Source of the DNA: Patescibacteria group bacterium | Lineage (GTDB): Bacteria > Patescibacteriota > Patescibacteriia > Patescibacteriales > JAQTRU01 | Length of the DNA stretch: 64,000 nucleotides | Direction: 5' to 3' | Assembly: GCA_028716725.1 (NCBI GenBank) | Contig: JAQUPG010000004.1 | Location: forward strand, 2,680-66,679 | Part shown: positions 15,607 through 21,808 of the stretch, piece after piece | Position numbering within the stretch: position 1 is the first letter of the stretch | Layout: every line of letters starts with the position of its first letter | Made by a program: the position numbers and the translations under genes | Notes under the pieces: generated by a model | The model's database searches: none | What the model saw: the letters and a program-made list of their open reading frames with translations, nothing else | What the model was told of the DNA's origin: nothing

Positions 15607-15799
15607 GGTAGTAAAGATATATAAATAAAAAAACACCTGGATTTTTTAAGAATCCAGGCATTTTTATTAAAATATATTTTAAATTAAAAACTGTTATTTG
15701 GAATAACAAGTTTGGGTTTTGGGTTGGATAGTCCCCTGCTTCGCCCGCCGTAGCCCTAAGCGAAGGCGGACCTACTCCAGCTTATATCCACATAAAACA

Positions 15800-15829
15800 A
15801 AGAATTACAGAGTTAACTCTGTAATTCTT
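15800..15829. repeat. 13-bp perfect hairpin AAGAATTACAGAG/CTCTGTAATTCTT, left flank of the CRISPR-cas module
   Basis: Read directly. The outer stem AAGAATTAC/GTAATTCTT is shared with the hairpin at 19805-19840. Confidence 0.7.
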
Positions 15830-15874
15830 GTTCATTTATATACTCTCATTATACCAAAAAACGCTCATAATAAT

Positions 15875-15899
15875 AAAAACACCCTCTTGGGGTGTTTTT
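15875..15899 (-). terminator. rho-independent terminator at the distal end of the CRISPR array
   Basis: AAAAACACCC / GGGTGTTTTT, a 10-bp stem with a 5-nt loop, 33 nt beyond the last repeat in the direction of array transcription. Confidence 0.65.
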
Positions 15900-15931
15900 A
15901 TTAAACTTTTAATTACCCCCCCCCTAGGGAA

Positions 15932-16219
15932 GTCTACAAAAGTAAAAATTGGATATAGTTATTAGACCCTATCCTTTGGATAATAAATGTATATCTACGG
16001 AAGTAGAAATTGGATATAATTATTAGGCTTAAAAGCCAACTAATAATTAAATTATAATCTACAAAAGTAGAAATTGGACACAGTTATTAGACTTCAATCA
16101 GAAGCCTGCCTAAAGGCTCTATCTACAAAAGTAGAAATTGGATATAGTTATTAGACTCTCCAAAGCTAAGAAACTTTATAATAATCTACAAAAGTAGAAA
16201 TTGGATATAGTTATTAGAC
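15932..16219 (-). CRISPR. Type V-A-like CRISPR array: 5 repeats of 36 nt, 4 spacers of 25-28 nt
   Basis: Repeats at 16184-16219, 16121-16156, 16057-16092, 15993-16028 and 15932-15967. Minus-strand consensus is GTCTAATAACTATATCCAATTTCTACTTTTGTAGAT. The two cas-proximal copies are identical and the distal ones carry 2, 4 and 2 substitutions. Confidence 0.92.
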
Positions 16220-16225
16220 AGTATA

Positions 16226-16301
16226 TTTAGCTATAATTAGCCACAAAAAAATAAAATTGTGAATAAATCCAAATAAAGATTTTTTGCTAATTATAGCTAA
16301 A
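16226..16301. repeat. 16-bp perfect inverted repeat in the cas12-to-array spacer (leader)
   Basis: TTTAGCTATAATTAGC (16226-16241) and GCTAATTATAGCTAAA (16286-16301) are separated by 44 nt. Confidence 0.8.
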
Positions 16302-16372
16302 ATTCCAAATACATACATTAGGGTTTCTCTCTAATAAATATACGACAACTTCTACCAATTTTACTACTTTTA

Positions 16373-19300
16373 TTACTCATTTTTTAAAGAACACTTGGAA
16401 TGCAATTCTGCTAAGCTTTTTTTAGCAATATTATATGAAGCGACCTTATCAGAGTTATCCAATGCGATTAAATCATTCCTAGTTTTGTCCTCTTTAGTGC
16501 CAAAATTGCAATTATTATTTTTACATTTATAGGCATGGGCATTCCATTTCTGCGATTTATCGGAATTTTCTGTTCCACAACGCGGACATTTGTTGCTTGT
16601 TCCGCATGTTTCAATATAAAATATCGCTCCAATCTGATTTATCTCCTTAAAATTTTGCAAGCTCATAACTTGCTTCAAGCCGGGCGGGACAAGGGAAAGC
16701 GTTTGAAATTTTTGCAATAATTTAAATTCAATTATACTGCCCAAATAACCAGAAAATTCACTAATTCGTTGATTCTTGTTAGCCATATCTAAATTCTCAA
16801 AAGCCACTATGCCAAAATATTTTTGCTGCAAATAATTTATAACCCCGACAGCGTTAGCGCACAAGGCATTTTTTAGATGGTTGATTTTTTCTATCGAAAT
16901 TATTTCAGCATTACCGCTCTTGTTTTTAATTCCGTCGTAATAATCCTGCAATTCTTTTTGAATGGCGTCCAAAGATAAAATATTATCAAACCGATCATCG
17001 TAACAATATAAATCATCATTTTCTAGTTTCCCGCGGTTTTCAATATTTAAAAATAAACTTCCTTTATCCGCATTATAACAAATTTTATCTGATCTGAATT
17101 TATTTTTAGCTACACCTTCCCAGATTTTTCTCAAAGCGCTTACTCGTTTTGACTCCAAATAAGTAGCTATATCTCCATTTAAAATTATTTTTCCTTTCAC
17201 TATTTTAGCGCAAGATAAATCAATACACGATTTTGCTGAAATCCTTTCAATGATTCCAATGTTGTTCAGAAACTGATCAATGCTTTTATAAGCGACCCTG
17301 TTTCCACTATCTTTTGCTAAATATTTTTCTTTCTTAAGCTGATATATTTCCAGATCAATAAATTCCGGCTTGTTATATTCTCCCGGCGTTCCGTCTTGTT
17401 TAATAAATTTTATCTTTTCATTTTCTGAAAATTTAAATAAGCCGAGAGTTAAAAGCTCATCCTTTCCCCTGTCTAATCCATAATAATAAATATCAAATGG
17501 TTTTATTTTTTTGTTAAACTCGTCATTATATTCCTCAATATATTTTTTAATATCATCGGTCGTTTTGTATGATAAGTCGGTATTTTTTCCGTGAGCATTC
17601 AAAGTTATCGTAGTTGAAAGCATAAATTGTTCGTTTAACCGTCTATTTTTTTTCAATTTACCCAAATCCCTATCTTTTAATTCGTCGGGGTGTTTTTCAA
17701 CAAAATTTATTTTAAATTCTGGATTCAAACGAACTTCGTAATTCTTTTCCTCATTTCCGTCTGTCCAAAAATCAAGCCAAATTTTTGTATGAAATTCAGG
17801 GTGGCTTCTGCCAAGATGATTTTTATTTTGTAAAGACGCCAAAATTTCTGCGTCATCTTTTTCCAAATCATAACTGGTTATTTTATACAAATTTCCTTGA
17901 TAATCATTAATAATTTTCTTTTTTGTATCTTCAGAAATAGCTATTGATTTTTTGTAATAACAAGTTTTTTTAAATAATCTCTCAAAGTCAGCCAATTCTC
18001 CATATTCTTTAATCGCAAGCTCATCAAAATTTTTAAAATTATCAATCGCCAGCATTTCCTTGGTTGAGCTTAAACTTAATACCGTCTGGTAAAACTTTAA
18101 CATCTCTTTCCCGTCTTCTGAAAATTGATCTTTTCTTTTTAAATCACCATTTATAAAAAAAGAATTATCATTTTGCAGAAGTTCATTTTTAATTGCCGGC
18201 ATAAAAGTATTTTTATCCGATCCAAAGCAAAGCTTGTCCAATGCACGCAAAGTAAACGATTCGAAAGCGTACAAATTCCATTGCCCGCCATTCTCGTTTT
18301 GCAAATCGTCAATATATTTTTTGGCATTTTGAAGATTATTTTTTGCGTCTCTTGAAATGGTTAAAACATATTTTTGGTTGTCTTTTTCCAAAATCACCGC
18401 CCAAGATTGTAATTTCTCAGCATCATTTTTTTCTCTTTCTAAAGATCTAATATCCGCTTTTATTCTACCAGATTCTTTAGCAACTTTTTCATATAATAAT
18501 AAAAAATTATATAAATTTGGAAAATTTTTTTTGGCAAACTGGAAATATTTACCCCTTTTTGATCCATCGGTTTCCTTCTTAAACTTATTAAAATTCTCTT
18601 CGCTAATATCCTTCAGCAATGCTAACTCCGGATTACTCTTTAAATCTTTATAGGTTTTATTTTGATGAACAAATTCATAGAATTTGGACTTTGAATCAGC
18701 CTTAAATTTCTTCATCGCCTCTTTCAACTTATCTATAGGCAAATTTATATCCGTAAATCCGGTTCGCTTAAATAAATTCTTATCATCTTGACTAAATGAA
18801 TAATTTAATTTTAATTTATCTTTATTATTTTGTATTTCTTGTGGATAATCTTTCGGTTTTTTATTAACGATATAATAATTTAAACTTGCACGTTCAATTT
18901 CAACTCCCAACGACTGGCTTGGCAGGACCGCTTTTTCCAATAATGCAAGCAATAGCTTACATTCGTCCAATTCTTTTTTTGCAACATCAATTTTTTCATT
19001 GCTATTTTTATAGTCAATATTTCCATTGAATAACTCAAAAATGAATTCAAAATTACTTCGCTTGGTTATTTTTCTAATCCAATATGCAAACTCGGAAATT
19101 CTTTTTTGGTTTTCTTCCGGCTGATTTAAACATATTTTTAAATTAGCAATACATTCTTTATTTTCTTCAAGCCAATTTTCAAAATAATCATTTAAAAATT
19201 TTATATTGGTATTATCAATAGCAATTTTGTTACCTCGTTTTTTATTGTCCTGAATAATTTTTTCCTTCACATCAAAAAAGTCATTTTTGGTGTAATTCCT

Positions 19301-19594
19301 CAGCCAAGAATGCTTAACGGAGATATTTTTACTTAATTTTTTCTCTTCAGAATCTCTGAGCGCGGCATAAATTAATTCCCTAAAAATTTGTATGGCATGG
19401 CCATATTTATTTATAAAATTATCTATTCGCTTTCTCAAATCATCATTATTGACTATCGGCTGATAAGGCCTCTTAATTTCCTTGGGTTCAAGAATAAACC
19501 GAATCGTCTTTCTTAATTCATAAAAGTTTTGATAATCTTTCATTTTTTTATCTTGAACATTATTAATATTATTTAGCTTTAAATTATTATTCAT
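16373..19594 (-). CDS. cas12: Cas12a-like type V effector, compact variant with C-terminal zinc ribbon
   Basis: 1073 aa. Cas12a-like landmarks: FYELRKTIRFILEP, LYKITSYDL, FMLSTTITLN. RuvC-I is GLD708RG, RuvC-II is AFE933NLD, RuvC-III is D1049KVASYNIAKK. Zinc ribbon CPRC(1003-1006)..CKNNNC(1024-1029). AAGGAA RBS at 19599-19604. Lies next to an array with the Cas12a handle. Confidence 0.9.
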   Translation of the reverse strand: MNNNLKLNNINNVQDKKMKDYQNFYELRKTIRFILEPKEIKRPYQPIVNNDDLRKRIDNFINKYGHAIQIFRELIYAALRDSEEKKLSKNISVKHSWLRNYTKNDFFDVKEKIIQDNKKRGNKIAIDNTNIKFLNDYFENWLEENKECIANLKICLNQPEENQKRISEFAYWIRKITKRSNFEFIFELFNGNIDYKNSNEKIDVAKKELDECKLLLALLEKAVLPSQSLGVEIERASLNYYIVNKKPKDYPQEIQNNKDKLKLNYSFSQDDKNLFKRTGFTDINLPIDKLKEAMKKFKADSKSKFYEFVHQNKTYKDLKSNPELALLKDISEENFNKFKKETDGSKRGKYFQFAKKNFPNLYNFLLLYEKVAKESGRIKADIRSLEREKNDAEKLQSWAVILEKDNQKYVLTISRDAKNNLQNAKKYIDDLQNENGGQWNLYAFESFTLRALDKLCFGSDKNTFMPAIKNELLQNDNSFFINGDLKRKDQFSEDGKEMLKFYQTVLSLSSTKEMLAIDNFKNFDELAIKEYGELADFERLFKKTCYYKKSIAISEDTKKKIINDYQGNLYKITSYDLEKDDAEILASLQNKNHLGRSHPEFHTKIWLDFWTDGNEEKNYEVRLNPEFKINFVEKHPDELKDRDLGKLKKNRRLNEQFMLSTTITLNAHGKNTDLSYKTTDDIKKYIEEYNDEFNKKIKPFDIYYYGLDRGKDELLTLGLFKFSENEKIKFIKQDGTPGEYNKPEFIDLEIYQLKKEKYLAKDSGNRVAYKSIDQFLNNIGIIERISAKSCIDLSCAKIVKGKIILNGDIATYLESKRVSALRKIWEGVAKNKFRSDKICYNADKGSLFLNIENRGKLENDDLYCYDDRFDNILSLDAIQKELQDYYDGIKNKSGNAEIISIEKINHLKNALCANAVGVINYLQQKYFGIVAFENLDMANKNQRISEFSGYLGSIIEFKLLQKFQTLSLVPPGLKQVMSLQNFKEINQIGAIFYIETCGTSNKCPRCGTENSDKSQKWNAHAYKCKNNNCNFGTKEDKTRNDLIALDNSDKVASYNIAKKSLAELHSKCSLKNE

Positions 19595-19638
19595 AAAATT
19601 CCTTATTCATCTTTTTATCCCCCTCGCCAATCTTGACT

Positions 19639-19743
19639 TTAATTATTTTCAACGATTTTAATTTCCTCCTCTGTCAACCCGTACAACTCATAAACTTTCT
19701 AGTCAATCTCCTTATCCGTTTTTCTACTCTTATCCGGTATAAT
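19639..19743 (-). pseudogene. remnant of the C-terminal tail of a restriction-modification (type I/IIG-like) enzyme
   Basis: The minus-strand frame reads IIPDKSRKTDKEID*KVYELYGLTEEEIKIVENN*. The VYELYGLTEEEIKIVE ending is a very common R-M methyltransferase/specificity C-terminus. An in-frame stop is present and no upstream ORF. Confidence 0.5.
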
Positions 19744-19753
19744 TTACCCCAAT

Positions 19754-19782
19754 ATTCTACAACAATTAACCCTAAATGTAAA
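19754..19782 (-). promoter_or_regulatory. candidate promoter for cas12
   Basis: The minus strand reads TTTACA, 17-nt spacer, TAGAAT. It lies downstream of the terminator of the preceding gene. Confidence 0.4.
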
Positions 19783-19804
19783 TAAACACCCTCTGCCTAA
19801 AAAT

Positions 19805-19840
19805 AAAAAGAATTACGTAATTTATTACGTAATTCTTTTT
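19805..19840 (-). terminator. hairpin/terminator after 19862..20344; right flank of the CRISPR-cas module
   Basis: AAAAAGAATTACGTAAT / ATTACGTAATTCTTTTT are perfect 17-nt arms, followed by a T-run on the plus strand and preceded by an A-run. Confidence 0.65.
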
Positions 19841-19861
19841 TATTGGAAATAATTGTTTCCC

Positions 19862-20788: not shown

Positions 20789-20880
20789 TTGCTCCCGGGG
20801 TCGGATTCGAAGACTCCTCGGTGCCTTCCTCGGAGCCGAAACGGGAAACGGGGCTCGATTCAAATCCATACCCACAAAAG
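20789..20880 (-). other. duplicated tRNA 3' fragment (T-loop plus acceptor 3' strand) preceded by a GC-rich insert
   Basis: The minus strand ends ...GAGTCTTCGAATCCGACCCCGGGAGCA. The last 22 nt are identical to the 3' end of the tRNA at 20918-20939, but no matching T-stem 5' strand is present. Confidence 0.55.
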
Positions 20881-20881
20881 C

Positions 20882-20916
20882 AAAAAAAATCAGTCCGAAT
20901 TCGACTGATTTTTTTT
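20882..20916 (-). terminator. rho-independent terminator after the tRNA
   Basis: AATCAGTC / GACTGATT stem extended by flanking A and T runs, immediately 3' of the tRNA discriminator base. Confidence 0.7.
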
Positions 20917-20955
20917 GCTCCCGGGGTCGGATTCGAACCGACGACCAATTGGTTA

Positions 20956-21575
20956 CACTTATCCTCTAGTTTCCTAAAGGGGTGGACTATATCATCCCCC
21001 CACTACAATGTAGTGGGGAGCGAGGCGCTTCCGTCCCGCATTCAGCGGGAAGTACTCTCTTTCCTTATTCGCATAAAGCTATAAAGGATACAATCGAGAT
21101 AGTCTCTACACCTGCCTTGGCTAAAGCTACGGCAAGGCAATGCCTTCCCATAAACCTTAACAAAGGATTGGCTCGGGATTACCCATTTTTTAAATTAGGG
21201 CTTCCCCGAATTCACCTCGTTTTTCAACCATGATTGCTCATGGAAGCTGCGTTATGCCGTCATGCACTTCTCTGCGGCAATTAGAACAAAGCAAAATGCA
21301 TTTATCCAGTTCATCTTTCACCTGTCCCCAGCTCCTGGTATAACCTTTAGCGGAAATACCAAAATCTTTTTTATTGGAATCAAGATGGTGAAATTCTAAA
21401 GCGTTAATGCTTCGCTCGTAGCCACAAATTGCACATTTACCGCCCTTATACTCAATAGCCATCTTTCTAATCGCCTTTCTTCTTCTGTCCACGGCTTTTT
21501 TTAAGTATTCGGCACGGTCGGCGTATTTTCTTTTATCTTTTGCCATAACTCTATTATAGCAAAGATTTTGTGTCC
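20956..21575 (-). mobile_element. group I intron carrying an HNH homing-endonuclease ORF
   Basis: The 5' exon ends in U and the intron ends in G. GCAGC at 21246-21250 can form P1 with GCUGU. There is an R-like element at 21096-21112 (GGTGTAGAGACTATCTC) and an S-like element at 20984-20996 (GATGATATAGTCC), giving a P7 of GACUA/UAGUC. Confidence 0.7.
21238..21546 (-). CDS. HNH endonuclease (intron-encoded)
   Basis: 102 aa: CAICGYERSINALEFHHLDSNKKDF...CILLCSNCRREVH, i.e. CxxC..HH..N..CxxC..H. It lies wholly inside the intron. Confidence 0.8.
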   Translation of the reverse strand: MAKDKRKYADRAEYLKKAVDRRRKAIRKMAIEYKGGKCAICGYERSINALEFHHLDSNKKDFGISAKGYTRSWGQVKDELDKCILLCSNCRREVHDGITQLP

Positions 21576-21654
21576 ACAGCCAACTGCGCTACCGCTGCGC
21601 TACCCGGGAATGTATTCAATTTTCTAATTTACTAATTTTCGAATTTTCAAATTT

Positions 21655-21718
21655 CTTTCCGAATAGCTACCGCTGCTTGCCTCGCCGAAACGAAGTGAAG
21701 GCGGGCGCTACCCGGGAA
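21655..21718 (-). other. duplicated tRNA 5' fragment with a 30-nt GC-rich insertion in the D-loop position
   Basis: The minus strand reads TCCCGGGTAGCGC[ccgccttcacttcgtttcggcgaggcaagc]AGCGGTAGC, then diverges. Its upstream flank ATTGAATA is also duplicated relative to the real tRNA. Confidence 0.55.
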
Positions 21719-21808
21719 AATATTCAATTTTCAATTAATCAATTACGAATTATCAATTAAAAAAAAGATTTCATCTTATTATAATAAATACTCTGGAAAT
21801 GTCAAACC

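What the first reader, a model, noticed from the sequence alone, without database searches (positions are those of the whole stretch)
16373..19594. Compact Cas12a-like effector whose nuclease lobe is rebuilt: TnpB-style zinc ribbon in place of Nuc, plus a large post-RuvC-I insertion
By eye, the ORF carries Cas12a landmarks: YQNFYELRKTIRFILEP, LYKITSYDL, RRLNEQFMLSTTITLN, RuvC-I GLD708RG, a bridge-helix-like IEKINHLKNA, RuvC-II AFE933NLD and RuvC-III D1049KVASYNIAKK.

The spacing of these motifs is not Cas12a-like:
- The RuvC-I Asp sits at residue 708, versus 908 in AsCas12a and 917 in FnCas12a.
- RuvC-I to RuvC-II is 225 aa here, versus 85-89 in As/Fn (D908/E993, D917/E1006).
- RuvC-II to RuvC-III is only 116 aa here, versus about 250-270 in As/Fn.

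The short RuvC-II to RuvC-III segment contains IFYIETCGTSNKCPRCG...CKNNNC. That is the zinc-ribbon arrangement of TnpB and small Cas12 families, which canonical Cas12a lacks. The long insertion after RuvC-I holds four more Cys (790, 795, 839, 864).

The pre-crRNA processing His of Cas12a (FFFH.PITLN) aligns to Ser660, although H668 and K670 lie just downstream.

A canonical V-A repeat paired with a non-V-A nuclease lobe suggests either a Cas12a2-like protein or an undescribed V-A-related lineage. As I recall it, Cas12a2 is a Cas12a-repeat-using, zinc-ribbon-bearing, RNA-triggered effector.
Basis: partly seen in the sequence, partly recalled or inferred. Interest (0 to 1): 0.9.

Follow-up and report, generated by a model that had tools for sequence, protein, structure and literature searches.

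The report
Short-form Cas12a3 effector with mini-array
This gene encodes a Cas12a3 CRISPR nuclease, a Cas12a relative described in 2026 that is switched on by RNA and cuts RNA such as tRNA tails, so it is a new, unannotated member of a known family, not a new kind of system.

Summary
A 1073-aa ORF lies on the minus strand at 16373-19594. A 5-repeat array with a Cas12a-type repeat follows the gene at 15932-16219.

The "rebuilt nuclease lobe" is a zinc ribbon instead of Nuc plus a ~225-aa insertion between RuvC-I and RuvC-II. That is the published architecture of the Cas12a2/Cas12a3/Cas12a4 group.

Within that group the protein is Cas12a3:
- The only PDB sequence hits are Cas12a3 (E 8e-67).
- It is 61% identical over its full length to the published ca3Cas12a3.
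- It falls inside the Cas12a3 clade (bootstrap 100).
- The AlphaFold model matches Cas12a3 (TM 0.77) better than Cas12a2 (0.49) or Cas12a (0.33).

It is the short form. The 106-aa tRNA-loading domain of Ba1Cas12a3 is reduced to about 30 aa, as in most relatives.

Published short forms behave in two ways: Sm3Cas12a3 trims tRNA tails, and RoiCas12a3 cuts RNA broadly. RNA-triggered RuvC RNase activity is therefore likely, but the preferred substrate is unresolved.

The locus is a minimal, low-GC cassette in a Patescibacteria genome with no cas1, cas2 or cas4. It is a new member of a known kind, of modest interest.

The parts
16373..19594 (-). cas12a3 ORF (1073 aa including a doubtful 17-aa N-terminal extension; the likely start is M18, codon 19541-19543)
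17642..17647 (-). N650-R651, aligned to the pre-crRNA processing residues K784/R785 of SuCas12a2 (R679 in BaCas12a3)
   Evidence: invariant in 38/38 Cas12a3-clade sequences
17465..17479 (-). RuvC-I motif GLDRG (D708)
16895..17449 (-). [quoted passage not shown]
   Evidence: mostly beta-strand in the AF2 model
16997..17089 (-). Short beta-meander (residues 836-866) at the position of the 106-aa tRNA-loading domain of Ba1Cas12a3. None of the CCA-contact residues has a counterpart here.
16787..16804 (-). RuvC-II motif AFENLD (E933)
16508..16588 (-). Zinc ribbon, C1003-x2-C1006 ... C1024-x4-C1029, in place of the Cas12a Nuc domain
   Evidence: CCCC in 141/159 relatives
16418..16450 (-). RuvC-III motif DKVASYNIAKK (D1049)
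16220..16372 (-). AT-rich leader between the stop codon and the first repeat; nearly identical in the related locus L001
15932..16219 (-). CRISPR array: five 36-nt repeats (GTCTAATAACTATATCCAATTTCTACTTTTGTAGAT; the last is degenerate) and four spacers of 27, 28, 28 and 25 nt
15871..15903 (.). Terminator-like hairpin closing the cassette; conserved in L001
19595..19785 (-). Conserved upstream part of the cassette. It holds the best promoter-like site (19782-19754) and a decayed ORF end ...DKEID*KVYELYGLTEEEIKIVENN*

Best explanation
This is a minimal type V CRISPR cassette consisting of promoter region, cas12a3, leader, a 4-spacer array and a terminator. Its effector is a short-form Cas12a3, meaning it lacks the tRNA-loading domain.

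Proposed mechanism, by homology:
1. The array is transcribed with the gene.
2. The WED-domain site containing R651 trims the pre-crRNA. The mature crRNA carries the Cas12a-type 5' handle AAUUUCUACUUUUGUAGAU and a guide of about 25-28 nt.
3. The binary complex is auto-inhibited.
4. Pairing of the guide with a complementary RNA that has a suitable 3' flanking sequence (contacted by S446) moves the REC lobe and exposes the RuvC site (D708/E933/D1049).
5. The RuvC site then cuts RNA in trans, not DNA. This stops translation and growth of the infected cell.

What is shown and what is inferred:
- Shown here: family membership, conserved catalytic, zinc and processing residues, fold, array and locus structure.
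- Inferred: RNA triggering, RNA-only collateral cleavage and growth arrest.
- Unresolved: whether the preferred substrate is the tRNA 3' tail (as in short-form Sm3Cas12a3) or bulk single-stranded RNA plus the target (as in short-form RoiCas12a3).
For: **Family membership**
- PDB sequence search returns only Cas12a3 chains: 21we E 8e-67 and 9hlx E 1e-64.
- BLASTP identities to published proteins:
  - 61% to ca3Cas12a3 over 1067 aa
  - 27-33% to seven other published Cas12a3 (ca5, ca8, ca9, ca1, ca10, Rb2, Sm2), 26% to Ba4Cas12a3 and 29% to Sm3Cas12a3
  - 22% to Cas12a2
  - a C-terminal match only to ApCas12a4
- In the NJ tree all Cas12a3 plus the query form a clade with bootstrap 100 that excludes ApCas12a4 and Cas12a2. 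The query's 21-member subclade with ca3Cas12a3 also has bootstrap 100.

**Fold**
- The AF2 model has mean pLDDT 84.9.
- Foldseek ranks Cas12a3 binary complexes first (TM 0.76-0.77, E about 1e-47), then Cas12a2 (TM 0.43-0.49), then Cas12a (TM about 0.33).

**Conserved residues**
- S446, N650, R651, D708, E933, D1049, C1003, C1006 and C1029 are invariant in 38/38 clade members.

**Locus and selection**
- The V-A-type repeat forms the expected 5-bp hairpin. The same repeat core accompanies relatives in 37 of 53 fetched loci.
- dN/dS against the 90% ortholog is 0.33, so the gene is under constraint.

**Published biochemistry of relatives**
- PMC12851939 and PMC13594972.
Against: - No experiment exists on this protein or on any member of its roughly 50%-identity subclade.
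- The structural element shown to load tRNA in Ba1Cas12a3 and BaCas12a3 (the tRLD) is absent. The REC2 T-arm loop is also absent.
- The two tested short-form orthologs share only 29-31% identity with this protein, and they disagree on substrate.
- No protospacer was found for any spacer, so the nature of the target is unsupported.
- There are no adaptation genes in 64 kb.
- My tree is a simple NJ tree with one Cas12a4 reference and no Cas12a outgroup.
Confidence: 0.85

Rival explanations
1. Sub-hypothesis A. [quoted passage not shown]
For: - All three Cas12a3 orthologs tested in PMC12851939 cut tRNA 3' tails.
- Sm3Cas12a3 does so although its sequence has the same short module. The R822..N905-equivalent segment is 78 aa in Sm3, 82 aa here and 156 aa in Ba1.
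Against: - None of the tRLD contact residues K881, K885, R902, Y922 and N924 has a counterpart here.
- Deleting the tRLD abolished tRNA cleavage in Ba1Cas12a3 and BaCas12a3.
- The tRLD-less RoiCas12a3 gave a different tRNA pattern.
- Identity to Sm3Cas12a3 is only 29%.
Confidence: 0.4
2. Sub-hypothesis B. Once activated, it is a broad collateral ssRNase that also cuts its target, like the tRLD-less RoiCas12a3 or like Cas12a4.
For: - RoiCas12a3 (Roizmanbacteria, tRLD-less) cleaves target ssRNA efficiently and has high collateral RNA activity (PMC13594972).
- This protein is also from a Patescibacteria genome and lacks the tRLD.
- Without the tRLD 'gate' the RuvC groove is expected to be more open (authors' model).
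Against: - Identity to Rb2Cas12a3, which I take to be RoiCas12a3 without having confirmed it, is only 31%, and it sits on a different branch.
- Short-form Sm3Cas12a3 still shows tRNA-tail preference and only partial target cleavage.
Confidence: 0.45
3. It is a Cas12a2: activated by RNA, it then degrades dsDNA, ssDNA and RNA indiscriminately.
For: - It has the same domain plan: zinc ribbon instead of Nuc, an insertion domain and a V-A repeat.
- Foldseek hits Cas12a2 with E 1e-20 to 1e-26.
Against: - Identity is 22%, with E about 1e-14 to ca7Cas12a2 and 3e-7 to SuCas12a2.
- It falls outside the Cas12a2 group in the tree, with bootstrap 100.
- TM is 0.43-0.49, against 0.77 for Cas12a3.
- The processing motif is NR, as in Cas12a3, not KR.
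- Published Cas12a3 proteins lack the aromatic-clamp regions needed for DNA shredding. I did not test this here.
Confidence: 0.04
4. It is an ordinary DNA-targeting Cas12a (type V-A), merely compact.
For: - The repeat is canonical V-A type.
- PADLOC-DB 'Cas12a' profiles PDLC01230 and PDLC01232 match it end to end at E 3.5e-191, so automated typers would label it Cas12a.
Against: - It gets no hit to any Pfam or NCBIfam Cas12a model at E <= 1.
- No Cas12a chain appears in the PDB sequence search at E <= 0.01.
- TM to Cas12a structures is about 0.33.
- There is no Nuc domain, and the RuvC spacing is 225/116 aa against about 85/260 aa in Cas12a.
- The His/Lys/Lys processing site is not retained.
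Confidence: 0.02
5. It is a decaying, non-functional remnant: a cassette without an adaptation module that is drifting.
For: - There is no cas1, cas2 or cas4 in 64 kb.
- The array has only 4 spacers, and the terminal repeat is degenerate.
- No protospacers were found.
- dN/dS of 0.33 is not very low.
Against: - The 1073-codon ORF is intact and every catalytic, zinc and processing residue is conserved.
- 64 of the 102 amino-acid differences from the ortholog lie in one REC segment, and the rest of the protein is about 96% identical.
- The leader and repeats are nearly identical in a second genome whose array has partly different spacers, which implies spacer turnover.
Confidence: 0.06

Closest known systems
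ca3Cas12a3 (contig Ga0070389; Supplementary Data 1 of Dmytrenko et al., Nature 2026, PMC12851939)
   Same: - 61% identity over 1067 aa.
- Same subclade, bootstrap 100.
- Same RuvC spacing (223 vs 224 aa), short module, zinc ribbon and SCxDLSCAK motif.
   Different: - ca3Cas12a3 carries a different, longer N-terminal extension.
- It is catalogued but not characterised biochemically.
Ba1Cas12a3 / BaCas12a3 (PDB 9hlx, 9hm4, 21we, 21wj): RNA-triggered tRNA 3'-CCA tail nucleases
   Same: - Overall fold: TM 0.76-0.77 to the binary complexes.
- RuvC triad, zinc ribbon, insertion domain, PFS-contact Ser, processing Arg and V-A crRNA handle.
   Different: - Only about 26% identity.
- The 106-aa tRLD (Ba1 residues 855-960) is reduced to about 30 aa, and its CCA-contact residues are absent.
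- The REC2 T-arm loop is absent.
- The host is Patescibacteria, not Bacteroidota.
Sm3Cas12a3 (Smithella sp. M82)
   Same: - Short form at the tRLD position (78 vs 82 aa).
- Same catalytic, zinc and processing residues.
   Different: - 29% identity and about 150 aa longer in the REC lobe.
- Sm3 is experimentally shown to cut tRNA tails, slightly further upstream, with a strict need for both CCA cytosines. This protein is untested.
RoiCas12a3 (Roizmanbacteria; probably Rb2Cas12a3, PIZ64637.1)
   Same: - tRLD-less Cas12a3 from a candidate-phyla-radiation bacterium.
- Similar size (1080 vs 1073 aa).
   Different: - 31% identity and a different branch of the tree.
- The zinc-ribbon region is longer (RuvC-II to RuvC-III 140 vs 115 aa).
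- Roi is shown to be a strong general collateral RNase that also cuts its target.
- I did not verify that Rb2 and Roi are the same protein.
SuCas12a2 / Cas12a2 (PDB 8d49, 8d4a, 8d4b)
   Same: [quoted passage not shown]
   Different: - 22% identity, TM <= 0.49 and a separate clade.
- Cas12a2 shreds DNA as well as RNA. Published Cas12a3 proteins do not.

Membership tests
Cas12a3 | Falls in the Cas12a3 clade, separate from Cas12a2 and Cas12a4 | tested here: met
   NJ tree with 100 bootstraps on 978 columns, using 13 published Cas12a3, 3 Cas12a2 and 1 Cas12a4. The Cas12a3-plus-query clade has bootstrap 100. Identity to ca3Cas12a3 is 61%. Caveat: one Cas12a4 reference and no Cas12a outgroup.
Cas12a3 | RuvC D/E/D catalytic triad | tested here: met
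   D708/E933/D1049 align to Ba1 D712/E1032/D1137 and are invariant in 38/38 sequences.
Cas12a3 | Zinc ribbon between RuvC-II and RuvC-III in place of Nuc | tested here: met
   C1003, C1006 and C1029 are invariant and C1024 is present in 35/38. All four Cys are present in 141/159 relatives. Weak Pfam Zn_Ribbon_1 match.
Cas12a3 | Insertion domain between RuvC-I and RuvC-II | tested here: met
   224 residues between D708 and E933. The same measure gives 223-259 in the 11 short-form published Cas12a3 in the set (319 in Ba1Cas12a3) and 196-214 in Cas12a2.
Cas12a3 | tRNA-loading domain (tRLD; Ba1 residues 855-960) with CCA contacts K881, K885, R902, Y922 and N924 | tested here: not met
   Only residues 836-866 align to its edges, and all five contacts fall in gaps. 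This feature defines the structurally described tRNA-loading mechanism, not the clade. About 35% of homologs have it (PMC13594972), and only 8 of 159 relatives in my census do.
Cas12a3 | Cas12a-type repeat with 5'-handle hairpin, array beside the gene | tested here: met
   Five repeats ending AATTTCTACTTTTGTAGAT on the gene's strand. The hairpin is predicted. The same core is found in 37/53 related loci.
Cas12a3 | Pre-crRNA processing Arg (SuCas12a2 R785 / BaCas12a3 R679) | tested here: met
   R651 aligns to Su R785 and is invariant. The preceding residue is N in 123 of 159 relatives, against K in Cas12a2 and H in ApCas12a4.
Cas12a3 | PFS-contacting Ser of the PI/WED region (Ba1 S469) | tested here: met
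   S446 aligns to Ba1 S469 and is invariant in 38/38 sequences.
Cas12a3 | RNA-triggered activation, RNA-only collateral cleavage (tRNA tails), growth arrest without SOS | not testable with these tools
   These are biochemical and genetic properties, known only for Ba1, Ba, Sm3, ca23 and Roi orthologs.
Cas12a3 | Adjacent cas4-cas1-cas2 (present in most, not all, published loci) | tested here: not met
   No Cas1, Cas2 or Cas4 in the 64-kb window by PADLOC scan of 59 ORFs or by tblastn with Pfam-verified Cas4/Cas1/Cas2 from L031. Subclade loci L005 and L010 do carry them.
Cas12a2 | Clade membership / close sequence similarity | tested here: not met
   22% identity, E 2e-14 to 3e-7, and outside the Cas12a2 group in the tree.
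Cas12a2 | Aromatic clamp residues for dsDNA collateral cleavage | not tested
   I did not retrieve the residue numbers. The Nature 2026 paper states that Cas12a3 proteins lack these regions.
Cas12a (type V-A effector) | Nuc domain, bridge helix, RuvC spacing of about 85/260 aa, and the His/Lys/Lys processing site | tested here: not met
   Spacing is 225/116 aa. No Pfam, NCBIfam or PDB Cas12a sequence match. TM is about 0.33. S660 sits at the His position. PADLOC 'Cas12a' HMMs do match, so typing tools would still call it V-A.
Cas12a4 | Clade membership | tested here: not met
   Only a 231-aa C-terminal BLASTP match to ApCas12a4 (E 2e-8). ApCas12a4 branches outside the clade and has HR instead of NR at the processing motif.

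The most novel reading that the evidence does not exclude
The ca3-type Patescibacteria subclade is made up of compact proteins of about 1050 aa. They have a roughly 30-aa beta-meander instead of the tRLD and a conserved SCxDLSCAK motif, and they often travel as a stand-alone gene-plus-mini-array cassette. This subclade could have a collateral substrate or activation logic that differs from both characterised behaviours, namely tRNA CCA-tail trimming and bulk ssRNA cleavage. For example, it could target another structured RNA. That would make it a third functional type within Cas12a3.
Probability: 0.15. Interest if true: 0.6.

Novelty: new member of a known kind. Interest (0 to 1): 0.3.

Why it matters
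- **Annotation.** The identical partial protein and the 90% homolog are annotated as "hypothetical protein" in NCBI. No Pfam or NCBIfam Cas12a model recognises this protein. PADLOC typing would call it plain Cas12a. Filing it correctly as Cas12a3 changes the predicted target (RNA, not DNA) and the predicted outcome (growth arrest, not DNA clearance).
- **Tool potential.** It is among the smaller members of the family (about 1056 aa from M18). It belongs to an uncharacterised subclade lying between the two tested short-form orthologs, which disagree on substrate. It is therefore a reasonable candidate for asking what, other than the tRLD, sets RNA substrate choice in Cas12a3, and for compact RNA-detection tools.
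- **Biology.** The finding adds a case of a minimal, horizontally moved CRISPR cassette in an ultra-small Patescibacteria genome.
- **Overall.** None of this is surprising to a specialist after the 2026 papers.

Tried and rejected
- **Pfam and NCBIfam scans of the ORF** gave nothing significant, so curated HMMs cannot name it.
- **Rfam at gathering threshold** found no CRISPR-DR family. Its only hit in the window was a group I intron.
- **ARAGORN on the window** found no tRNA. The tRNA next to the locus is hidden by an intron.
- **Protospacer searches** for all four spacers in viral contigs, and for S4 in metagenome contigs, found only the sister array. There is no self-target in the window at up to 6 mismatches, apart from one chance 6-mismatch site. 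Target identity and PFS therefore could not be inferred.
- **My first repeat pattern** (AATTTCTACTNNNNGTAGAT) was mis-specified: it found nothing in the fetched loci, although L001 carries the repeat, whose loop is TTTT. I corrected it.
- **A second zinc site from Cys 790, 795, 839 and 864** was considered and rejected because the residues are not conserved.
- **A link between the nearby tRNA-Thr gene and a tRNA-cutting nuclease** was considered. I have no evidence for it. The tRNA lies outside the conserved cassette, and the sister cassette sits in an unrelated neighbourhood.
I therefore could not measure Cys-Cys distances or check how close the short module lies to the RuvC site.

Full report
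**Observation.** The ORF at 16373-19594 is on the minus strand and encodes 1073 aa without interruption.
- YQNFYELRKTIRF at 21-37, LYKITSYDL at 569-577 and RRLNEQFMLSTTITLN at 651-666.
- RuvC-I GLD708RG, IEKINHLKNA at 901-910, RuvC-II AFE933NLD and RuvC-III D1049KVASYNIAKK.
- CPRC at 1003/1006 and CKNNNC at 1024/1029.
- Cys 790, 795, 839 and 864, and S660, H668 and K670.

Directly downstream on the same strand lies a small CRISPR array at 15932-16219.
- It has five 36-nt repeats, GTCTAATAACTATATCCAATTTCTACTTTTGTAGAT, the last of which is degenerate.
- Its four spacers are 27, 28, 28 and 25 nt long.
- The 3' end of the repeat is the Cas12a-type handle and folds into the expected 5-bp hairpin.

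One correction concerns the start. The first 17 residues are probably not translated. The 90%-identical ortholog has ATA at that ATG. NCBI models of the identical and 90% proteins start at M18. The model has pLDDT below 50 for residues 1-14.

**What it is.** Sequence search of all PDB chains returns only two proteins, both Cas12a3: 21we (E 8e-67) and 9hlx, Ba1Cas12a3 (E 1e-64). No Cas12a or Cas12a2 chain appears at E <= 0.01.

Cas12a3 and Cas12a4 were described in January 2026 as two clades next to Cas12a2. They keep the RuvC motifs, the crRNA-processing and PFS-recognition residues and the zinc ribbon. They are activated by RNA and cleave RNA but not DNA, and Cas12a3 trims tRNA 3' CCA tails (PMC12851939).

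I copied sixteen published sequences from that paper's Supplementary Data 1. Their lengths match its Supplementary Table 1. BLASTP identities to the query are as follows:

| Published protein | Identity to query | Note |
|---|---|---|
| ca3Cas12a3 | 61% | over 1067 aa |
| ca5Cas12a3 | 33% | |
| ca1Cas12a3 | 33% | best segment, 780 aa |
| ca8Cas12a3 | 32% | |
| Rb2Cas12a3 | 31% | |
| ca9Cas12a3 | 30.5% | |
| Sm2 and Sm3Cas12a3 | 29% | |
| ca10Cas12a3 | 27% | |
| Ba4 and Ba1Cas12a3 | 26% | |
| Cas12a2 | 22% | E about 1e-14 for ca7Cas12a2 |
| ApCas12a4 | C-terminal 231 aa only | E 2e-8 |

A neighbour-joining tree was built on 978 well-occupied columns with 100 bootstraps.
- The query and all named Cas12a3 sequences form one clade (bootstrap 100) that excludes ApCas12a4 and Cas12a2.
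- Inside it, the query sits in a 21-member subclade with ca3Cas12a3 (bootstrap 100).
- The sister group of that subclade contains Altimarinota and Vampirococcus proteins (bootstrap 98).

An AlphaFold2 model built from 28 homologs has mean pLDDT 84.9 and pTM 0.79. Foldseek ranks Cas12a3 binary complexes first (TM 0.76-0.77, E about 1e-47). Cas12a2 follows (TM 0.43-0.49, E 1e-20 to 1e-26), and then Cas12a (TM about 0.33, E about 1e-15).

**Anatomy.** D708, E933 and D1049 align to Ba1Cas12a3 D712/E1032/D1137 and to SuCas12a2 D848/E1063/D1213. They are invariant in all 38 Cas12a3-clade sequences aligned.

The zinc-ribbon cysteines are conserved: C1003, C1006 and C1029 in 38/38 and C1024 in 35/38. 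All four are present in 141 of 159 full-length relatives.

The 224 residues between RuvC-I and RuvC-II are the "insertion domain". Structural work on Cas12a2 describes it as replacing the Cas12a bridge helix, alongside a zinc ribbon that replaces Nuc (PMC9849127). The same measure gives 223-259 residues in the 11 short-form published Cas12a3 proteins in my set, 319 in Ba1Cas12a3, and 196-214 in Cas12a2.

This is explained by published work. Cas12a2 and Cas12a3 do not retain His843/Lys852/Lys869. SuCas12a2 uses K784/R785, and BaCas12a3 R679 is the equivalent of R785 (PMC13594972). Here N650/R651 align to Su K784/R785 and are invariant. The serine that contacts the PFS adenine in Ba1 (S469) is S446 here, also invariant.

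The four extra cysteines are not a conserved site. C864 is unique to this protein and C839 occurs in 14 of 38 sequences.

**The one structural departure from the solved Cas12a3 proteins.** In Ba1Cas12a3, residues 855-960 of the insertion domain form the tRNA-loading domain (tRLD). It clamps the CCA tail through K881, K885, R902, Y922 and N924.

In this protein only residues 836-866 align to the edges of that domain. They are modelled as a three-strand beta-meander. All five contact residues fall in gaps. The REC2 T-arm loop (Ba1 residues 251-257) is also largely missing: R251 and N253 fall in gaps, and K256/K257 align to Q269/D270.

This is not peculiar to the window.
- The same short form is seen in ca3, ca5, ca8, ca9, ca1, ca10, Ba4, Sm2, Sm3 and Rb2.
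- In my census of 159 full-length relatives, the segment bracketing the tRLD is 60-120 aa in 148 and at least 140 aa in only 8.
- The NAR paper independently reports that only about 35% of Cas12a3 homologs carry the domain.

Functional data on short forms are mixed.
- The NAR authors tested the tRLD-less RoiCas12a3. They found efficient target cleavage, strong general collateral RNA cleavage and a different tRNA pattern.
- Sm3Cas12a3 has the short form by its sequence (78 aa against 82 here and 156 in Ba1). In the Nature paper it trims tRNA 3' tails, shifted slightly upstream, and strictly needs both CCA cytosines.

Absence of the tRLD therefore does not decide the substrate.

**The locus.** No Cas1, Cas2 or Cas4 is encoded anywhere in the 64-kb window. 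A PADLOC scan of 59 ORFs found none. Neither did tblastn with Cas4, Cas1 and Cas2 proteins from locus L031, whose identity I verified with Pfam.

The neighbours are housekeeping genes: PadR, PspC and GreA downstream, and DUF7670, sigma-70 and DnaG upstream.

The gene has 29.8% G+C, against 40.8% for the window and 40-48% for its immediate neighbours.

A block from 15869/15933 to 19785 is 92.6% identical to a Patescibacteria contig, L001 (Ga0265296_1000819 / JBAZPX010000010.1). The block covers the promoter region, gene, leader, array and terminator hairpin. The flanks of the two loci are unrelated; in L001 they are MurJ, LepA and RecJ.

The two arrays share a nearly identical leader and spacer S4. 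S2 overlaps an L001 spacer with a 3-nt offset, and the other spacers differ. This suggests spacer turnover after the cassettes diverged.

dN/dS between the two genes is 0.33. Of the 102 amino-acid differences, 64 lie within about 200 REC-lobe residues, and the rest of the protein is about 96% identical.

Other members of the subclade (L005 and L010, both Patescibacteria) carry the full cas4-cas1-cas2 module and longer arrays. The window therefore holds a reduced, horizontally moved version of a normal locus.

The organism assignment rests on two proteins. P0002 is 100% identical over 890 aa and P0001 is 90% identical. Both are labelled Patescibacteria group bacterium and annotated "hypothetical protein".

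**Mechanism.** Steps 1, 2 and 4 are inferred by homology to the structurally and biochemically studied orthologs.
1. The array is transcribed with or just after the gene. The best promoter-like site lies at 19782-19754, at the cassette edge, although the number of promoter-like sites in the region is not above chance.
2. The WED site with R651 processes the pre-crRNA, and the 5' handle pseudoknot anchors between WED and RuvC.
3. The complex rests in an auto-inhibited state. The model resembles the binary complexes best.
4. A complementary RNA with a suitable 3' PFS opens the REC lobe and exposes RuvC. RuvC then cuts RNA in trans, arresting translation and growth.

I put 0.85 on this family-level mechanism. 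I split the substrate question roughly evenly between tRNA-tail trimming (0.4) and broad ssRNA cleavage (0.45).

**Comparison and novelty.** The protein meets every clade-level criterion of Cas12a3 that I could test. It fails only two features that are not universal in the clade: the tRLD and an adjacent adaptation module. It is not Cas12a2, Cas12a4 or canonical Cas12a.

PADLOC's "Cas12a" profiles match it end to end (E 3.5e-191), so such variants were already inside typing HMM sets. Supplementary Table 1 of the Nature paper also credits some orthologs to a 2020 CRISPR Journal study. The family is large: 502 clusters at 50% identity reach E <= 1e-3, and 250 reach E <= 1e-30.

It is therefore a new, currently unannotated member of a known kind. 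The remaining interest is that its subclade has not been tested, and that the two tested short-form orthologs disagree.

**Caveats.**
- The tree is NJ with a simple distance correction, one Cas12a4 reference and no Cas12a outgroup.
- I read only 4 of 13 parts of the published FASTA.
- I assumed, without verifying, that Rb2Cas12a3 equals RoiCas12a3.
- Model coordinates could not be inspected.
- No protospacers were found.

Noticed in passing
window 20918-21609 (minus strand): A tRNA-Thr(UGU) gene is split after U33 by a 620-nt group I intron (intron 21577-20958). The Rfam RF00028 hit covers 20963-21305. The intron carries an HNH-like ORF at 21241-21546. ARAGORN finds no tRNA in the raw window, but the spliced exons give a clean tRNA-Thr(tgt). 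The gene lies about 1.3 kb upstream of the cas12a3 gene, and I found no sign of a functional link.
   Followed up: partly
window 21597-21732 and 20789-20937: Partial direct duplicates of the 5' end of that tRNA (28 nt, 93% identity, 108 nt apart) and of its 3' end (23 nt, 100% identity, 126 nt apart) flank the gene. Their origin is unexplained; they could be an integration scar, or the result of intron homing or gene conversion.
   Followed up: no
window 15869-19785 vs L001 9777-13726: The cas12a3-array cassette is 92.6% identical in a second Patescibacteria MAG but sits in an unrelated neighbourhood. Its G+C is about 11 points below the window average. It behaves like a small mobile or horizontally transferred unit, yet no transposase or integrase is next to it.
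   Followed up: partly
window 15794-15836 and 19802-19844: Two similar palindromic hairpins (AAAGAATTAC...GTAATTCTTT, 74% identical) lie just outside both ends of the conserved cassette. They score as terminator-like. They may be host terminators or a duplicated insertion target.
   Followed up: no
window about 19640-19760 (minus strand): A decayed ORF end, ...DKEID*KVYELYGLTEEEIKIVENN*, lies upstream of cas12a3 and is conserved in L001, where the stop is absent. From memory only, it resembles the C-terminal tail of restriction-modification or BREX-type methyltransferases. That would hint that the cassette came from a defence island.
   Followed up: no
cas12a3 residues about 217-417 (window about 18344-18946): 64 of the 102 amino-acid differences from the 90% ortholog fall in this REC-lobe stretch, while the rest of the protein is about 96% identical. 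This could reflect local diversifying selection, for example anti-CRISPR pressure, or recombination.
   Followed up: no
window, elsewhere (ORFs not located individually): A PADLOC scan of all 59 ORFs gave hits to mad1, mad2, mad3 and mad8 (MADS), MzaA, and GajA/AriA-like ATPases. Hits to RT_UG29 and RTasDnaG-like are possibly the DnaG primase. The window may hold another defence cluster.
   Followed up: no
L011 (Methanosarcinaceae MAG), L036 (Woesearchaeota MAG), and L006-L009 (labelled Gammaproteobacteria or Micavibrio): Cas12a3 relatives at 29-59% identity occur on contigs binned to archaea and to proteobacteria. This could be real horizontal spread or mis-binned Patescibacteria contigs.
   Followed up: no
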